DNA from: Escherichia coli O157:H7
Lineage (GTDB): Bacteria; Pseudomonadota; Gammaproteobacteria; Enterobacterales; Enterobacteriaceae
Direction: 5' to 3' (one strand)
NCBI RefSeq assembly: GCF_013167455.1
Contig: NZ_CP038328.1
DNA length: 64,000 bases
Shown here: in pieces, positions 670 to 24,418 of the stretch
How positions within the stretch are numbered: the stretch's first letter is position 1
Layout of the letters: each line of letters begins with the position of its first letter
Notes under the pieces: model-generated
Seen by the model: the letters and a program-made list of their open reading frames with translations, nothing else
Told to the model about the DNA's origin: nothing
Databases searched by the model: none
Program-made: the position numbers and the translations under genes

Positions 670-1929
670 ATGACGGAACAAGAAAAAACCTCCGCCGTGG
701 TTGAAGAGACCAGGGAGGCCGTGGACACCACGTCACAACCTGTCGCAACAGAAAAAAAGAGTAAGAACAATACCGCATTGATTCTCAGCGCGGTGGCTAT
801 CGCTATTGCTCTGGCGGCGGGCGTCGGTTTGTATGGCTGGGGTAAACAACAGGCCGTCAATCAGACCGCCACCAGCGATGCCCTGGCTAACCAACTGACG
901 GCATTGCAAAAAGCCCAGGAGAGCCAAAAAGTCGAGCTGGAAGGCATTATTAAGCAACAAGCTGCACAGCTTAAGCAGGCGAATCGTCAGCAAGAAACGC
1001 TGGCAAAACAGTTGGATGAAGTCCAACAAAAGGTCGCCACCATTTCCGGCAGCGATGCTAAAACCTGGCTGCTGGCTCAGGCCGATTTTCTGGTGAAACT
1101 CGCCGGACGGAAGCTGTGGAGCGATCAGGACGTCACGACCGCTGCAGCGTTGCTGAAAAGTGCAGACGCCAGCCTGGCGGATATGAATGACCCGAGTCTG
1201 ATTACCGTTCGTCGGGCAATTACCGATGATATCGCCAGCCTTTCTGCAGTATCGCAGGTGGATTATGACGGCATCATCCTTAAGCTTAATCAGCTTTCAA
1301 ATCAGGTAGATAACCTGCGTCTGGCCGATAATGACAGCGATGGTTCGCCGATGGATTCCGACGGTGAAGAGCTTTCCAGTTCCATCAGCGAATGGCGTAT
1401 CAATCTGCAAAAAAGCTGGCAGAACTTTATGGACAACTTCATTACGATTCGCCGTCGTGATGACACCGCCGTACCGCTGTTAGCGCCAAATCAGGATATC
1501 TATCTGCGCGAAAATATTCGCTCTCGCCTGCTGGTCGCAGCACAAGCTGTACCGCGTCACCAGCAAGAGACTTATCGCCAGGCGCTGGAGAACGTCTCCA
1601 CCTGGGTACGTGCTTACTACGATACTGATGATGCCACCACCAAAGCGTTCCTCGACGAGGTAGACCAGTTAAGCCAGCAAAATATCTCGATGGATCTTCC
1701 GGAAACCCTGCAAAGCCAGGCGATGCTGGAAAAACTGATGCAGACTCGCGTGCGTAACCTGCTGGCACAACCGGCAGCGGGGACAACGGAAGCTAAACCT
1801 GCACCTGCACCTGCACCTGCACCTGCACCTGCACCTGCACCTGCACCTGCACCTGCACCTGCACCTGCACCTGCACCTGCACCTGCACCGCAAGCTGATA
1901 CTCCGGCAGCCGCGCCGCAAGGAGAATAA
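670..1929 (+). CDS. hemX: HemX membrane protein with C-terminal Pro-Ala repeat
   Basis: 419 aa ORF with N-terminal TM segment ([21 protein letters not shown]), coiled-coil-like region and (PA)15 tail; sits between hemD and hemY. Confidence 0.9.
1798..1887. repeat. Perfect hexanucleotide tandem repeat (CCTGCA)x15, in frame within hemX
   Basis: Read directly: cct gca repeated 15 times from codon boundary 1798, then ccg caa; encodes (Pro-Ala)15. Confidence 0.95.
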
Positions 1930-3175: not shown

Positions 3176-3382
3176 AAAAAAACGCCTGCTCTTATTACGG
3201 AGCAGGCGTTAAAACAGGTCTGTATGACAACAAGTGGGTGCTTCACTCAACGTTGTGTCCATGGTGTCTGATGAGGCATAAGCGACATCTGTCAGTGGAC
3301 GATAAGCACCGTAAACGGCTCTGCGTCATTCCGGAGTTTATGAGGCACTAAGGCGAACATAAGAGATGGAATGAGCATCTAC
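3176..3382 (-). ncRNA. glmZ: GlmZ small RNA (activator of glmS translation)
   Basis: Reverse complement of 3176..3382 reads GTAGATGCTCATTCCATCTCTTATGTTCGCC...CGCCTGCTCCGTAATAAGAGCAGGCGTTTTTTT, matching the GlmZ sequence as I recall it, including its intrinsic terminator hairpin and U-tract; lies between hemY and aslA as expected. Confidence 0.85.
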
Positions 3383-5629: not shown

Positions 5630-6865
5630 TTACTTACTCACCACCAGCAAATGCGCCTGCATAATGTCGCTGGCCGGGCGACCGTGCGCCAGCAAATCAG
5701 CCATTGCTTTAAGATATGGCGGTAGATGGCGGAAATAACGCTGATACCCGGCACACAAATAATTCAGTCCCGGTTTGCCGCTGGCATCGAGCATGAAGCG
5801 GTGTTTCGGGCAGCCTCCCCAACATGCTTTTAACACGTTACAACTGCGACACTGCGCCGGTAATTGCTTAAATTTATCTTCACCAAACACCTGCTGTTGC
5901 GGGGAATCGATCATTTCTGCAATTGTTTGCTGGTGCATATTCCCCAGTCGATATTGCGGATAAACATAGTGATCGCAGGCGTAAACGTCGCCATTGTGCT
6001 CAACAATCACCGAGCGCCCACAGGTTGGCTGATGATGGCAAACCGCACCCGGCGCACCGACAAAATTGGCAAACGCCCATTCGATATTCATCACGAAAAT
6101 CTTGCCGACGTCGCGTTTAATCCAGTGGTCGAATATCGCCACCAGAAATTCACCAAATTCATCGGGGCGCACAGACCATTCCGTCAGTTCCCCCTGAATA
6201 TCACCAGGCGCATGTAGTTTCAGTCCTTCGCGGGCAGTCGTTTCATCAGCCAGGCGCTCGACCACCGGAATAAACTGGATGAATTCGACTCCCGCATCGC
6301 ACAAAAAATCATAAACCTGTAACGGTTGCTGCGCGCTGGTGCGGTTGACGCAGACCAGCACGTTATAGTCGACATGATGTTTTTGCAGGAGCGTCAGGGC
6401 ACGCATCACCAGTTTATGCGTGGGTCTGCCGCCTTTTGTCACGCGATATTGATTGTGGATCTCAGCCGGACCATCCAGCGATAACCCAACAAGAAAATGA
6501 TTTTCTGCCAGAAATGCACACCATTCATCATCGAGCAGTACGCCGTTAGTCTGGAAGCTGTTACTTATCTTCCTGCCAGCACCATATTTCGCCTGTAGCG
6601 CCACGGCACGGCGGTAAAACTCCAGCCCGAGTAGCGTTGGTTCGCCGCCCTGCCAGGTAAAAGCCACTTCGTTTTGCGGTTCGCTGGCAGCGATATAGTG
6701 ACGGACATACGCTTCCAGCGTGTCATCGTCCATATGCGTGACTGGCTTTTCGCGGTAAAGGGATTGTTTTTCGAGATAAAAACAGTAGTCACAGTTCAGA
6801 TTACAATCGGAACCGCTCGGTTTCGCCATCACATGAAAAGCACGCGTTGGAACCTGTTGCAGCAT
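5630..6865 (-). CDS. aslB: anaerobic sulfatase-maturating enzyme homologue (radical SAM)
   Basis: ORF 5630..6895; CxxxCxxC radical-SAM motif (CNLNCDYC) near N-terminus; start set at the internal Met (MLQQVPTRAFHVMAKPSG) giving 411 aa. Confidence 0.85.
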   Translation of the reverse strand: MLQQVPTRAFHVMAKPSGSDCNLNCDYCFYLEKQSLYREKPVTHMDDDTLEAYVRHYIAASEPQNEVAFTWQGGEPTLLGLEFYRRAVALQAKYGAGRKISNSFQTNGVLLDDEWCAFLAENHFLVGLSLDGPAEIHNQYRVTKGGRPTHKLVMRALTLLQKHHVDYNVLVCVNRTSAQQPLQVYDFLCDAGVEFIQFIPVVERLADETTAREGLKLHAPGDIQGELTEWSVRPDEFGEFLVAIFDHWIKRDVGKIFVMNIEWAFANFVGAPGAVCHHQPTCGRSVIVEHNGDVYACDHYVYPQYRLGNMHQQTIAEMIDSPQQQVFGEDKFKQLPAQCRSCNVLKACWGGCPKHRFMLDASGKPGLNYLCAGYQRYFRHLPPYLKAMADLLAHGRPASDIMQAHLLVVSK

Positions 6866-6984
6866 GGTCGCTCCTTGCCTGAAGTCATCCTTCAATACGT
6901 TAAGGGCGAAATCATACCGTGGGGCAATGAGTTATTACGGGCGTTTATTGCGAAGGGAGGGTGACGAAATGCACAGAAAACAAA

Positions 6985-7008
6985 AAACCCCGCCGAAGCG
7001 GGGTTCAA
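6985..7008 (-). terminator. Intrinsic terminator downstream of proM (tRNA operon)
   Basis: Minus strand reads CCCCGCTTCGGCGGGG hairpin followed by TTTTTTGTTTT, immediately after the tRNA-Pro 3' end. Confidence 0.7.
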
Positions 7009-7011
7009 AAT

Positions 7012-7088
7012 TGGTCGGCGAGAGAGGATTCGAACCTCCGACCCACTGGTCCCAAACCAGTTGCGCTACCAAGCTGCGCTACTCGCCG
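7012..7088 (-). tRNA. proM: tRNA-Pro (anticodon UGG)
   Basis: Reverse complement gives CGGCGAGTAGCGCAGCTTGGTAGCGCAACTGGTTTGGGACCAGTGGGTCGGAGGTTCGAATCCTCTCTCGCCGACCA, 77 nt with encoded CCA. Confidence 0.95.
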
Positions 7089-7130
7089 AAATACTGCTTT
7101 TTGAATTTTTAGTTCAATTCTTTAAAGTCG

Positions 7131-7217
7131 TGGTGCGAGGGGGGGGACTTGAACCCCCACGTCCGTAAGGACACTAACACCTGAAGCTAGCGCGTCTACC
7201 AATTCCGCCACCTTCGC
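7131..7217 (-). tRNA. leuT: tRNA-Leu (anticodon CAG), duplicated copy
   Basis: Reverse complement gives GCGAAGGTGGCGGAATTGGTAGACGCGCTAGCTTCAGGTGTTAGTGTCCTTACGGACGTGGGGGTTCAAGTCCCCCCCCTCGCACCA, 87 nt; identical to the copy at 7357..7443. Confidence 0.9.
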
Positions 7218-7237
7218 ATTGTCACAACTTCTAATAA

Positions 7238-7314
7238 TGGGGTGGCTAATGGGATTCGAACCTCCGACCCACTGGTCCCAAACCAGTTGCGCTACCAAGC
7301 TGCGCTACTCGCCG
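7238..7314 (-). pseudogene. Chimeric tRNA: tRNA-Pro 5' body fused to tRNA-His 3' T-arm/acceptor strand; predicted non-functional
   Basis: Reverse complement gives CGGCGAGTAGCGCAGCTTGGTAGCGCAACTGGTTTGGGACCAGTGGGTCGGAGGTTCGAATCCCATTAGCCACCCCA; 5' 60 nt equal proM, 3' end equals hisR; junction in the shared GGTTCGAATCC; acceptor and T stems no longer base-pair. Confidence 0.85.
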
Positions 7315-7356
7315 AAATACTGCTTTTTGAATTTTTAGTTCAATTCTTTAAAGTCG

Positions 7357-7443
7357 TGGTGCGAGGGGGGGGACTTGAACCCCCACGTCCGTAAGGACAC
7401 TAACACCTGAAGCTAGCGCGTCTACCAATTCCGCCACCTTCGC
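7357..7443 (-). tRNA. leuT: tRNA-Leu (anticodon CAG)
   Basis: Same 87 nt sequence as 7131..7217; follows hisR after a 20 nt spacer as in the canonical operon. Confidence 0.95.
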
Positions 7444-7463
7444 ATTGTCACAACTTCTAATAA

Positions 7464-7540
7464 TGGGGTGGCTAATGGGATTCGAACCCACGACAACTGG
7501 AATCACAATCCAGGGCTCTACCAACTGAGCTATAGCCACC
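7464..7540 (-). tRNA. hisR: tRNA-His (anticodon GUG)
   Basis: Reverse complement gives GGTGGCTATAGCTCAGTTGGTAGAGCCCTGGATTGTGATTCCAGTTGTCGTGGGTTCGAATCCCATTAGCCACCCCA. Confidence 0.95.
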
Positions 7541-7597
7541 ACTACAAATCTTGTTACGCGGTATTACTACCACCGCAGCTCAAGCGCCGGGACTAAA

Positions 7598-7674
<77 letters not shown>

Positions 7675-7679
7675 TTAGC

Positions 7680-7745
7680 GCCGTTGCGGGGGTGGATAAT
7701 ACGGACTTCCCCCCCCTCTGTCTAGTCCCTTTTTAAATAAATTGC
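7680..7745 (-). promoter_or_regulatory. Probable promoter of the argX-hisR-leuT-proM operon
   Basis: Minus strand upstream of argX has a TATTAT -10-like hexamer followed by a GC-rich discriminator (CCACCCCCGC), as in stringently controlled stable-RNA promoters; -35 is not clear. Confidence 0.4.
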
Positions 7746-7776
7746 GCGTTTGGTTACGGTTTGTGCGTTTTGCTGC

Positions 7777-9162
7777 TTATTCCTCCAGTTTATGCGCTTT
7801 CCCGTGGCGATTAAGGCCAAAAACTTTATAAATCGCCGTCACCGCCAGCATAAAGATGATGCCAACAAACAGCGACATACGCGTATCTTCATTAAAGTAC
7901 ATGCCGATCAAAACGCAAATCAGGAATGCCATTGTTACGTAGTTGGCCCACGGGAACAGGATTGAGCGGAACGGATGGCTGGCAATCGCCGCTTTATGTG
8001 CACGCCGAAAACGCAGCTGGCTTATCAATATCACAAACCATGGCACCATCCCCGGAAGCACGCTGGCACTGTAGACGTAGACAAACACACGCTGCGGATT
8101 GGGAATGATGTAGTTCAGGCATGAGCCAATTAGCAGAATAGCAATAGATACTGCCACACCCGCAACCGGTACGCCGTGACGGGAAACTTTCGCCATCGCC
8201 GCCGGTAACTGACGGTTTTTCGCCAGTGCGTAGAGCATACGTCCGCAACTGTACATGCCGCTGTTACAGCCAGAGAGCGCAGCCGTCAGCACCACAAAGT
8301 TGATAATGCCCGCCGCTGCGGTAATACCGATTTTGGCAAAAGTCAGTACGAACGGGCTGCCGTTGCTGCCTATTTCATTCCACGGGAAGATGGTGACGAT
8401 AACGAAAATCGCGCCAACGTAGAAAATCAGGATCCGCCACAGCACCTTGCCTACGGCACTGCGCAGCGTCACCTGCGGATTCTTCGCTTCACCGGCAGTA
8501 ATGCCAATCAGCTCCACGCCCTGGTAGGACGCCACCACAATACACAGCGCGGTCAGGAACCCTTTCCAGCCACCCGCAAAGAAACCGCCATGCTCTGTGA
8601 GATTGCTAAAACCAATCGACTGCCCGCCATTGCCAAAGCCAAAGAAAATCACGCCCAGGCCAATGACAATCATCACGATAATCGTGGTGACTTTGATCAT
8701 CGCGAACCAGAACTCGATTTCGCCGTACAACCGCACCGCTGCCAGATTCGCCAACGCCACCAGCGCCACTGCGATCAATGCGGGTATCCACTGCGCCATC
8801 TCCGGGAACCAGAACTGGACATAAACGCCAATGGCGGTGATTTCAGAGATCCCCACCGCCATCCACATAAACCAGTAAGACCAGGCGGTGAGATAGCCAA
8901 AGAACGGGCTCATATAACGATGCGCATAAACGGCGAACGAACCGGTAACCGGTTCGAGGAACAACATTTCGCCCATTGAACGCATGATGAAAAAGACGAA
9001 CAGCCCGGCGATGATATAGGCCAACAATACGGATGGCCCGGCCCATTTCAGGGTACTGGCGGCCCCCATAAACAGGCCGACGCCAATGGTGCCCCCCAGG
9101 GCGATGAGTTCGATATGTCGAGCTTCCAGCCCACGCTGTAGCTCTGGTTTGTTATCTGCCAT
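7777..9162 (-). CDS. yifK: amino-acid permease (APC family)
   Basis: 461 aa ORF, 12 predicted TM segments, APC-family N-terminal region ([27 protein letters not shown]). Confidence 0.9.
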
Positions 9163-23958: not shown

Positions 23959-24288
23959 TTACGCCAGGTTAGCGTCGAGGAACTCTTTCAACTGACCTTT
24001 AGACAGTGCGCCCACTTTGGTTGCCGCCACTTCACCGTTTTTGAACAGCAGCAGAGTCGGGATACCACGGATGCCATATTTCGGCGCAGTGCCAGGGTTT
24101 TGATCGATGTTCAGTTTTGCAACGGTCAGTTTGCCCTGATATTCGTCAGCGATTTCATCCAGAATCGGGGCGATCATTTTGCACGGACCGCACCACTCTG
24201 CCCAGAAATCGACGAGGATCGCCCCGTCCGCTTTGAGTACATCCGTGTCAAAACTGTCGTCAGTCAGGTGAATAATTTTATCGCTCAT
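23959..24288 (-). CDS. trxA: thioredoxin 1
   Basis: ORF 23959..24393 contains [50 protein letters not shown]...; WCGPC active site; 109 aa from the internal Met. Confidence 0.95.
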
Positions 24289-24418
24289 ATATAACTCCAC
24301 AGGAATAAGCCTGGCGTGTTGGTTTCGTTGTTGGTGTAACATTAACCAACTAAAGGTTGACTTTATTTCACCGGATACGCTTTCGTAAAGCAATAGTAAG
24401 CTGATATTCTACCACACT

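What the first reader, a model, noticed from the sequence alone, without database searches (positions are those of the whole stretch)
7238..7314. Chimeric tRNA-Pro(5')/tRNA-His(3') gene predicted to be non-functional but co-transcribed
The 77 nt element has the tRNA-Pro acceptor 5' strand, D arm, UGG anticodon arm and T-stem 5' strand, fused to the tRNA-His T-stem 3' strand, acceptor 3' strand and CCA. By manual pairing the acceptor stem (CGGCGAG against AGCCACC) and the T stem no longer pair, so it should not fold as a cloverleaf. It sits mid-operon, so it will be transcribed and must be processed or degraded; it could affect RNase P/RNase E processing of the flanking leuT copies.
Basis: partly seen in the sequence, partly recalled or inferred. 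Interest (0 to 1): 0.5.

Follow-up and report, generated by a model that had tools for sequence, protein, structure and literature searches.

The report
Pro/His hybrid tRNA duplication scar
The odd half-proline, half-histidine tRNA gene is real: it is the join left by a 226-base tandem duplication that gave E. coli O157:H7 a second copy of a leucine tRNA gene, and the hybrid itself is almost certainly a dead by-product.

Summary
Window 7238-7314 (minus strand) is a 77-nt gene. Its 5' 52 nt are identical to proM and its 3' 14 nt to hisR, joined inside an 11-nt T-loop sequence that both parents share. It is the novel joint of a perfect 226-bp tandem duplication (7026-7488). This turns argX-hisR-leuT-proM into argX-hisR-leuT-[chimera]-leuT-proM.

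The exact junction occurs in 287 of 5,426 complete E. coli genomes, and every serotyped strain listed is O157 or O157:H7. It is absent from O55:H7 CB9615, and three genomes carry it twice. It is therefore a real, single-origin lineage marker, not an assembly artefact.

In the normal register only 2 of 7 acceptor pairs and 3 of 5 T-stem pairs survive, and both acceptor-end ProRS determinants (G72, A73) are replaced by C. A 1-nt slipped register restores 5-6 acceptor pairs. That explains the weak ARAGORN and Rfam calls, but artificial fusions score the same. RefSeq leaves the element unannotated.

Most likely it is co-transcribed, cut out at the duplicated RNase E spacer sites and degraded, so the only functional gain is a second leuT. 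It is an ordinary kind of event and of low interest. No expression data were available.

The parts
7696..7724 (-). sigma-70 promoter-like site upstream of argX (TAGACA-17-TATTAT). It is the only one in 6900-7850.
   Evidence: The operon is described as one polycistronic transcript in K-12 (PMC3985628).
7598..7674 (-). argX, tRNA-Arg(CCG), intact
   Evidence: 64.1 bits; ARAGORN 123.0
7464..7540 (-). hisR, tRNA-His(GUG), intact. The G-1 residue is at 7540. This gene is the parent of the chimera's 3' end.
   Evidence: 69.7 bits; cloverleaf MFE, z = -2.9
7357..7443 (-). leuT copy 1, tRNA-Leu(CAG)
   Evidence: 48.5 bits. It is identical to copy 2.
7315..7356 (-). 42-nt spacer identical to the native leuT-proM spacer. 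In K-12 this spacer carries the RNase E sites called E3 and E4.
   Evidence: identity; site assignment from PMC3985628
7238..7314 (-). Chimeric pseudo-tRNA. Window 7263-7314 comes from proM (acceptor 5' strand, D arm, UGG anticodon arm, T-stem 5' strand). Window 7252-7262 is the shared T-loop core and crossover zone. Window 7238-7251 comes from hisR (T-stem 3' strand, acceptor 3' strand, C73, CCA).
7218..7237 (-). 20-nt spacer identical to the native hisR-leuT spacer. RNase E cuts 1-3 nt after the hisR CCA in K-12.
   Evidence: identity; cleavage position from PMC7049720 and PMC3985628
7131..7217 (-). leuT copy 2, tRNA-Leu(CAG)
7012..7088 (-). proM, tRNA-Pro(UGG), intact. This gene is the parent of the chimera's 5' three quarters.
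   Evidence: (65.8 bits)
6985..7006 (-). Rho-independent terminator hairpin after proM
7026..7488 (.). Tandem duplication with period 226, 2.0 copies and 100% identity. The units are 7026-7251 and 7252-7477, followed by a third copy of the 11-nt core at 7478-7488.
   Evidence: (TRF score 926)

Best explanation
The element is a recombination scar. In an ancestor of the O157:H7 clone, an unequal exchange or replication slip occurred between the 11-bp T-loop sequence GGTTCGAATCC of hisR and the same sequence in proM, 226 bp downstream. This duplicated the segment 'hisR 3' end - spacer - leuT - spacer - proM 5' part'. The result is a second, fully intact leuT flanked by native spacers. At the novel joint lies a hybrid gene carrying proM's first three quarters and hisR's last quarter.

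The hybrid is transcribed with the operon from the argX promoter. It cannot form a proper acceptor/T-arm stack and has lost the ProRS acceptor determinants. It also lacks hisR's 5' strand, G-1 and anticodon. It is therefore neither a tRNA-Pro nor a tRNA-His.

The duplicated spacers keep the RNase E sites. The two leuT precursors should therefore be released and matured normally, and the hybrid should be released as a roughly 80-120-nt misfolded fragment that is removed by 3' exonucleases and polyadenylation-dependent quality control.

Shown here: the anatomy, the duplication, the lineage distribution, the loss of pairing and identity elements, and the single promoter and terminator. Inferred: the mechanism of origin, transcription, processing, degradation and the absence of function.
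For: Parent identities and the 11-nt crossover core. Perfect 226-bp x 2.0 repeat. The exact junction is in 287 of 5,426 complete genomes, and all serotyped strains listed are O157 or O157:H7. O55:H7 CB9615 has the four-gene operon with flanks more than 99.9% identical outside the duplicated segment. Strain 319 has three leuT copies and two joints, and 3 of the 287 genomes have two junctions; this is what further unequal crossing-over between 226-bp repeats would produce. The canonical register keeps 2/7 acceptor pairs and 3/5 T-stem pairs. The MFE is not a cloverleaf, z = -0.02. Rfam scores 34.6 bits against 48.5-69.7 for the five real tRNAs. ARAGORN scores 106.3 against 116-123.5, which is indistinguishable from artificial fusions at 102-111. 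RefSeq/PGAP annotates no feature there. G72 and A73 are the major ProRS determinants, and G1/C72 proline tRNAs are not charged in vivo (PMC8860583). RNase E sites lie in the single-stranded AU-rich spacers (PMC3985628; PMC7049720), and these spacers are duplicated intact. There is one promoter-like site and one terminator only.
Against: There are no expression, processing or charging data for O157:H7, so everything downstream of the DNA is inference. A slipped-register cloverleaf (G2-C71, G3-C70, C4-G69, G5.A68, A6-U67, G7.U66, U8-A65) lies only 1.1 kcal/mol above the MFE, and two tRNA finders accept it. A partly tRNA-like fold in vivo therefore cannot be excluded. Kime et al. found that direct-entry cleavage at the site after leuT needs a second single-stranded region beyond a folded proM; replacing proM with a misfolded hybrid could change cleavage efficiency at the first leuT. 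I could not establish whether every O157:H7 genome retains the duplication.
Confidence: 0.8

Rival explanations
1. The element is a working extra tRNA-Pro(UGG) gene, as ARAGORN labels it. It would fold in the slipped register and be charged with proline.
For: ARAGORN calls it tRNA-Pro(tgg). Rfam tRNA scores 34.6 bits, above the gathering score of 29. The slipped acceptor helix has 5-6 of 7 pairs at -23.3 kcal/mol against an MFE of -24.4. The D arm, the anticodon arm and the UGG anticodon are intact.
Against: The T stem is reduced to two G-C pairs. In the slipped register the terminal pair is G-C or a C.A mismatch rather than C1-G72, and the 3' tail reads ACCCCA. Proline tRNAs with G1/C72 are not aminoacylated in vivo (PMC8860583). 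15 of 42 arbitrary fusions, including 5 of 6 with the proM 5' part, get the same kind of ARAGORN call. The slipped structure has an ensemble probability of about 0.4%. PGAP does not annotate it.
Confidence: 0.04
2. The hybrid is an assembly or sequencing artefact, that is, a mis-joined repeat.
For: Tandem repeats of tRNA genes are a classic place for assembly errors.
Against: The identical 43-nt junction, which has no 28-mer seed in either parent, is in 287 independently assembled complete genomes from many laboratories and platforms. Copy number is coherent, with two junctions and three leuT copies in strain 319. A 226-bp unit is shorter than a single Sanger or long read. The sister lineage O55:H7 lacks the duplication.
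Confidence: 0.01
3. The hybrid RNA, or its presence in the precursor, has a selected regulatory role. It could act as a cis decoy whose proM-type 5' part and hisR-type 3' strand compete with the real proM and hisR during folding and so tune their maturation. Alternatively it could act as a stable spacer-derived RNA, by analogy with tRNA-spacer sponges.
For: In an equilibrium fold of the whole 711-nt precursor, hisR acceptor-pair probability falls from about 1.0 to about 0.58, with 0.42 going to the chimera's 3' strand. proM falls from 0.98 to 0.77, with 0.21 going to the chimera's 5' strand. The MFE pairs the chimera's 5' part with proM's 3' end. The duplication is retained in all 287 genomes that carry the junction, even though 226-bp direct repeats can recombine out.
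Against: The model ignores co-transcriptional folding, tertiary structure, modifications and rapid RNase E cleavage, all of which favour local cloverleaves. hisR and proM are essential (the proM statement is in PMC8860583), so strong interference would be selected against. Retention is equally explained by clonal descent in a young lineage or by a benefit from the extra leuT. There is no evidence of a stable RNA.
Confidence: 0.07
4. The duplication was selected for higher tRNA-Leu(CAG) dosage and the hybrid is a tolerated by-product. This is a sub-version of the best explanation that adds an adaptive claim.
For: The only intact gene gained is leuT. The variant is present throughout the sampled O157:H7 genomes, and further amplification to three copies occurs.
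Against: Fixation in a clonal lineage needs no selection. From my own knowledge of the K-12 gene set, the gain would be one gene on top of four CAG-anticodon leucine genes, which is a modest change. No fitness or tRNA abundance data exist here.
Confidence: 0.25

Closest known systems
E. coli K-12 argX-hisR-leuT-proM operon, the ancestral four-gene form
   Same: The promoter region, the four intact genes, the spacers and the terminator are the same. O55:H7 CB9615 carries exactly this arrangement, with flanks more than 99.9% identical outside the duplicated segment.
   Different: The window has one extra 226-bp unit containing a second leuT and the hybrid joint.
Tandem tRNA gene arrays of E. coli that vary in copy number by unequal recombination. 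PMC4539685 mentions glyV/W/X/Y as a tandem array. Classical cases such as tyrT-tyrV are from my own knowledge.
   Same: Head-to-tail repeats sit inside a tRNA transcription unit, and copy number is polymorphic (2 or 3 units).
   Different: In those arrays the repeat boundaries fall so that every copy is an intact gene. Here the first exchange was between two different tRNA genes at an 11-nt T-loop identity, so the joint is a hybrid of two isoacceptor families.
tRNA pseudogenes or hybrid tRNA-like sequences that lenient tRNA finders call and stricter pipelines reject
   Same: The ARAGORN score (106.3) and the Rfam score (34.6 bits) are low but passing, and there is no RefSeq annotation. Artificial fusions behave identically.
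   Different: This one lies inside an essential, highly expressed operon rather than in a prophage or degraded region, so it is almost certainly transcribed.
Regulatory RNAs derived from tRNA-operon spacers, such as the 3' external transcribed spacer of glyW-cysT-leuZ (from my own knowledge; not tested here)
   Same: Both would be a non-tRNA by-product released from a polycistronic tRNA precursor by RNase E.
   Different: There is no evidence here of stability, Hfq binding or a pairing target. This is an analogy only.

Membership tests
Functional bacterial tRNA-Pro(UGG) | Seven-pair acceptor stem in the canonical register, closed by C1-G72 | tested here: not met
   2 of 7 pairs remain and position 1-72 is C.C. 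The slipped register gives 5-6 pairs, but its terminal pair is G-C or C.A.
Functional bacterial tRNA-Pro(UGG) | Five-pair T stem that stacks on the acceptor stem | tested here: not met
   3 of 5 pairs in the canonical register. ARAGORN's model has only two G-C pairs.
Functional bacterial tRNA-Pro(UGG) | D arm, anticodon arm and UGG anticodon | tested here: met
   These are identical to proM.
Functional bacterial tRNA-Pro(UGG) | ProRS acceptor-end identity elements G72 and A73 | tested here: not met
   The sequence shows C72 and C73, inherited from hisR. The determinants are as stated in PMC8860583.
Functional bacterial tRNA-Pro(UGG) | Covariance-model score in the range of genuine tRNAs of the same genome | tested here: not met
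   34.6 bits against 48.5-69.7 for the five real tRNAs. ARAGORN 106.3 against 116-123.5. The score falls within the range of artificial fusions.
Functional bacterial tRNA-Pro(UGG) | Stable, matured and aminoacylated RNA in vivo | not testable with these tools
   This needs a Northern blot, tRNA-seq or an acid-urea gel.
Functional tRNA-His | G-1:C73 pair, hisR acceptor 5' strand and GUG anticodon | tested here: not met
   Only C73 and the 3' strand are present. The 5' strand and the anticodon are proM's.
Novel-joint pseudogene of a tandem duplication | Each half is identical to a neighbouring parent gene, and the switch falls inside a sequence both parents share | tested here: met
   There are no mismatches to proM over 7252-7314 or to hisR over 7238-7262. 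The shared 11-nt core is at 7252-7262.
Novel-joint pseudogene of a tandem duplication | Flanking direct repeats whose period equals the distance between the two parental homology sites | tested here: met
   Period 226, 2.0 copies, 100% identity. The T-loop cores of proM and hisR are at 7026 and 7478, which is 2 x 226 apart.
Novel-joint pseudogene of a tandem duplication | A close relative carries the unduplicated allele | tested here: met
   O55:H7 CB9615 and strain XJ34 have Arg-His-Leu-Pro only.
Novel-joint pseudogene of a tandem duplication | Real in the population rather than in one assembly only | tested here: met
   287 complete genomes carry the junction, and 3 carry two junctions.
Regulatory RNA derived from a tRNA precursor (sponge or decoy) | Stable accumulation and a defined pairing partner or effect | not testable with these tools
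   There is only a thermodynamic hint of competition with hisR and proM.

The most novel reading that the evidence does not exclude
The hybrid is not inert. Because it is an exact copy of proM's 5' three quarters and hisR's 3' quarter, it may act in cis as a folding decoy in the nascent precursor, or persist as a stable tRNA-like fragment. Either way it would measurably change the maturation or level of the single-copy essential tRNAs His and Pro(UGG) in O157:H7, and it would have been retained for that reason.
Probability: 0.05. Interest if true: 0.6.

Novelty: new member of a known kind. Interest (0 to 1): 0.22.

Why it matters
As it stands, the value is practical.

1. The junction is a clean, PCR-testable structural marker of the O157:H7 clone. 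It is absent from O55:H7 CB9615 and its copy number varies (2-3 units).
2. It shows that ARAGORN over-calls this element as a second tRNA-Pro(UGG), whereas RefSeq omits it. tRNA gene counts for O157:H7 therefore depend on the tool used.
3. It is a natural example of a duplication seeded by only 11 bp of the universally conserved T-loop. This is one route by which tRNA operons gain gene copies.

If the hybrid RNA did interfere with hisR or proM maturation, it would be a natural test case for current models of RNase E direct entry, which propose that a folded tRNA positions the flanking single-stranded sites.

Tried and rejected
- Literature. Four full-text searches and one title search found no paper describing this hybrid or a leuT duplication in O157:H7. 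Withers et al. 2006 (RNA 12:933), which I recall compared tRNA gene sets of K-12, CFT073 and O157:H7 and may mention it, is not held. Prior description therefore cannot be excluded. PMC4539685 discusses O157:H7 tRNA copy number but only argO/argU.
- Other species. The 29-nt junction has no exact match in one genome per species across 100,044 species.
- Other T-loop joints in the same operon. The proM-5'/argX-3' and hisR-5'/argX-3' junction queries gave no match in 5,426 genomes. A local control showed that these two queries are not masked by the low-complexity filter.
- Lineage marker, used to ask whether any O157:H7 genome has lost the duplication.
  - The 7712 SNP query returned nothing because DUST masks it, so it is uninformative.
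  - The 9232 allele is ancestral, with 4,093 genomes.
  - The 4935 allele is shared by about 303-309 genomes at full length. These include at least one genome of non-O157 size, XJ34, which has the ancestral operon. The excess of about 16-22 over the 287 cannot therefore be read as reversion.
- The first 171-nt search could not separate duplicated from unduplicated genomes, because the tool joins the parental pieces. It was replaced by the seed-free 43-nt junction query.
- My first slipped-register calculation was off by one and was redone.

Full report
WHAT IS THERE

The window matches E. coli O157:H7 chromosomes at 100% identity (EDL933 over window 5690-8860). ARAGORN finds six tRNA-like genes in a row on the minus strand: argX 7598-7674, hisR 7464-7539, leuT 7357-7443, a 75-nt 'tRNA-Pro(tgg)' at 7240-7314, a second leuT at 7131-7217, and proM 7012-7088.

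Base-by-base comparison shows that 7012-7237 and 7238-7463 are identical except for 9 mismatches within the first 14 positions. Put another way, 7026-7262 is identical to 7252-7488. Tandem Repeats Finder reports the same thing: period 226, 2.0 copies, 100% matches, at 7026-7488.

The 77-nt element at 7238-7314 is therefore the novel joint of a tandem duplication:
- Window 7263-7314 is proM sequence: the acceptor 5' strand, D arm, UGG anticodon arm and T-stem 5' strand.
- Window 7238-7251 is hisR sequence: the T-stem 3' strand, acceptor 3' strand, C73 and CCA.
- The switch lies somewhere inside the 11-nt core GGATTCGAACC (7252-7262, plus strand). This is the T-loop sequence GGUUCGAAUCC that both parents share.

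IS IT REAL?

I used a 43-nt query centred on the joint, designed so that neither parent offers the 28-nt seed that megablast needs. It hits 287 of 5,426 complete E. coli genomes at 100% identity. Every serotyped strain among the 60 rows listed is O157 or O157:H7. An unnamed pig isolate with the junction (NJS001) has flanks 99.98% identical to the window.

Three genomes carry two junctions. One with an extra match, strain 319, shows Arg-His-Leu-Leu-Leu-Pro, which is a triplication. O55:H7 strain CB9615, a representative of the lineage from which O157:H7 is held to derive, has the plain Arg-His-Leu-Pro operon. Its flanks differ at about 9 sites in roughly 12 kb.

No other species representative carries the joint. 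The two other joints that T-loop exchange could make in this operon, proM/argX and hisR/argX, occur in no E. coli genome (control).

I conclude that this was a single event on the branch leading to O157:H7, inherited clonally, with occasional further unequal crossing-over. It is not an artefact.

CAN THE HYBRID BE A tRNA?

With the proM cloverleaf imposed, the acceptor stem keeps 2 of 7 pairs and the T stem 3 of 5. The D and anticodon arms are intact. The free-energy minimum is not a cloverleaf and is no more stable than shuffled sequence (z = -0.02). By contrast, proM and hisR fold as cloverleaves.

Sliding the 3' strand by one nucleotide gives G2-C71, G3-C70, C4-G69, G5.A68, A6-U67, G7.U66 and U8-A65. 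The best structure containing that helix is -23.3 kcal/mol, only 1.1 above the minimum, although it makes up about 0.4% of the ensemble.

This slipped helix is what ARAGORN uses (score 106.3, with a T stem of two G-C pairs). The Rfam tRNA model uses it too (34.6 bits against a gathering score of 29).

The calls carry little weight, however. The five genuine tRNAs score 48.5-69.7 bits and 116-123.5 in ARAGORN. I also fused the 5' and 3' parts of the window's seven different tRNAs at the T loop in all 42 non-self combinations. ARAGORN called 15 of them, including 5 of the 6 with the proM 5' part, at scores of 102-111. The real hybrid scores the same as an arbitrary fusion.

RefSeq annotation has no feature at the hybrid in any record I opened.

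CHARGING

G72 and A73 are the major acceptor-end determinants for E. coli ProRS. Proline tRNAs changed to G1/C72 are not aminoacylated in vivo (PMC8860583). The hybrid has C72 and C73 in the canonical register. In the slipped register it has a G-C or C.A terminal pair with an ACCCCA tail. It also lacks hisR's 5' strand, G-1 and anticodon. It should be neither a tRNA-Pro nor a tRNA-His.

TRANSCRIPTION AND PROCESSING (INFERRED)

Between 6900 and 7850 there is one promoter-like site, upstream of argX at 7724-7696, and one terminator, after proM at 7006-6985. In K-12 the operon is a single precursor (PMC3985628). The hybrid is therefore almost certainly transcribed.

RNase E cuts this precursor at five sites, all in single-stranded A/U-rich spacer segments. 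The cut after hisR lies 1-3 nt beyond the CCA (PMC7049720). The duplication copies whole spacers:
- leuT copy 1 is followed by the native leuT-proM spacer (7315-7356).
- The hybrid is followed by the native hisR-leuT spacer (7218-7237).

I therefore expect both leuT precursors to be released and matured as usual. The hybrid should be released as a short fragment that is a poor RNase P substrate, because it has no proper acceptor/T-arm stack. It should then be cleared by 3' exonucleases and poly(A)-dependent quality control. This last step rests on general knowledge of defective-tRNA decay in E. coli, not on a result obtained here.

TWO CAVEATS

First, Kime et al. showed that direct-entry cleavage after leuT depends on a second single-stranded region on the far side of proM, and they suspected that the folded tRNA helps to align the two. 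At leuT copy 1 that folded tRNA is replaced by the hybrid.

Second, the hybrid's 5' part is an exact copy of proM's and its 3' strand an exact copy of hisR's. They can therefore pair in trans with the real genes. In an equilibrium fold of the 711-nt precursor:
- The hisR acceptor-pair probability drops from about 1.0 to 0.58.
- The proM acceptor-pair probability drops from 0.98 to 0.77, compared with the unduplicated precursor.
- The minimum-energy structure joins the hybrid's 5' part to proM's 3' end.

This model ignores co-transcriptional folding, tertiary structure and rapid cleavage, so I treat the result as a hypothesis rather than a finding.

HOW IT AROSE (INFERRED)

Eleven base pairs of identity is well below what RecA-dependent recombination normally needs. 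From general knowledge of repeat instability, the founding event was more likely replication slippage or template switching between the two T-loop cores. Once two 226-bp repeats existed, ordinary unequal crossing-over could raise or lower the copy number, which accounts for the triplicated strains.

COMPARISON WITH WHAT IS KNOWN

Copy-number change of tRNA genes by tandem duplication is well known in E. coli, and lenient tRNA finders commonly over-call hybrid or degraded tRNA-like sequences. What is particular here is the exchange between genes of two different amino-acid families at the conserved T loop, within an operon that contains the only tRNA-His gene and the essential proM.

I found no paper describing it. 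However, one likely source, Withers et al. 2006, is not held, and the sequence has been public since the first O157:H7 genomes. I file it as a new, or at least unannotated, member of a known kind.

VERDICT

The explanation is a duplication scar accompanying an extra leuT, with confidence about 0.8. Interest is low (0.22): it is useful as a lineage marker and as an annotation caveat, and it would become more interesting only if the hybrid RNA were shown to affect hisR or proM maturation.

Noticed in passing
window 1797-1889: There is a perfect (ACCTGC) x 15.5 hexanucleotide array inside hemX, going by the annotation of NJS001. Alignment offsets show the window has 42 nt (7 units) more than NJS001. 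This is an in-frame variable-number repeat within an otherwise 99.98% identical region.
   Followed up: partly
window 7712: This position is C in the window and A in O55:H7 CB9615. It lies in the 17-nt spacer between the two hexamers of the argX promoter-like site at 7724-7696. I could not count the allele across genomes because the low-complexity filter masks the query.
   Followed up: partly
L001 (EDL933) and L002 (strain 319), tRNA operon: RefSeq locus tags skip one number exactly at each hybrid: EDL933 goes RS25260 to RS25250, and strain 319 goes RS26210 to RS26200 to RS26190. The more recently annotated NJS001 has no gap. This suggests an earlier annotation round called a feature at each hybrid and later dropped it.
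   Followed up: no
L002 (NZ_CP018241.1, strain 319), locus 797-1685: The 226-bp unit is triplicated, giving three leuT copies and two hybrids. Three of the 287 junction-bearing genomes have two junctions. The array is therefore still changing in copy number.
   Followed up: partly
L006 (NZ_CP098231.1, strain XJ34, 4.88 Mb, bovine): This strain shares the window's aslA allele at window 4935 but has the ancestral four-gene operon, and its aslA is annotated as a pseudogene with an internal stop. It may be a relative outside the duplication-bearing clade.
   Followed up: no
window 7012-7688 (whole precursor, minus strand): In an equilibrium fold, the hybrid's halves compete with the real hisR 3' strand (probability 0.42) and the real proM 5' strand (0.21). 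This is a model-only observation.
   Followed up: partly
window 3176-3382 (-), 24259-24358 (-), 39471-39760 (-), 43194-48204 (-): Rfam matches above gathering score elsewhere in the window are GlmZ sRNA, the trxA 5' UTR thermometer, the 'Rev39' 5' UTR element, and an rRNA operon with tRNA-Glu, tRNA-Asp and tRNA-Trp. All are as expected for this chromosomal region.
   Followed up: no
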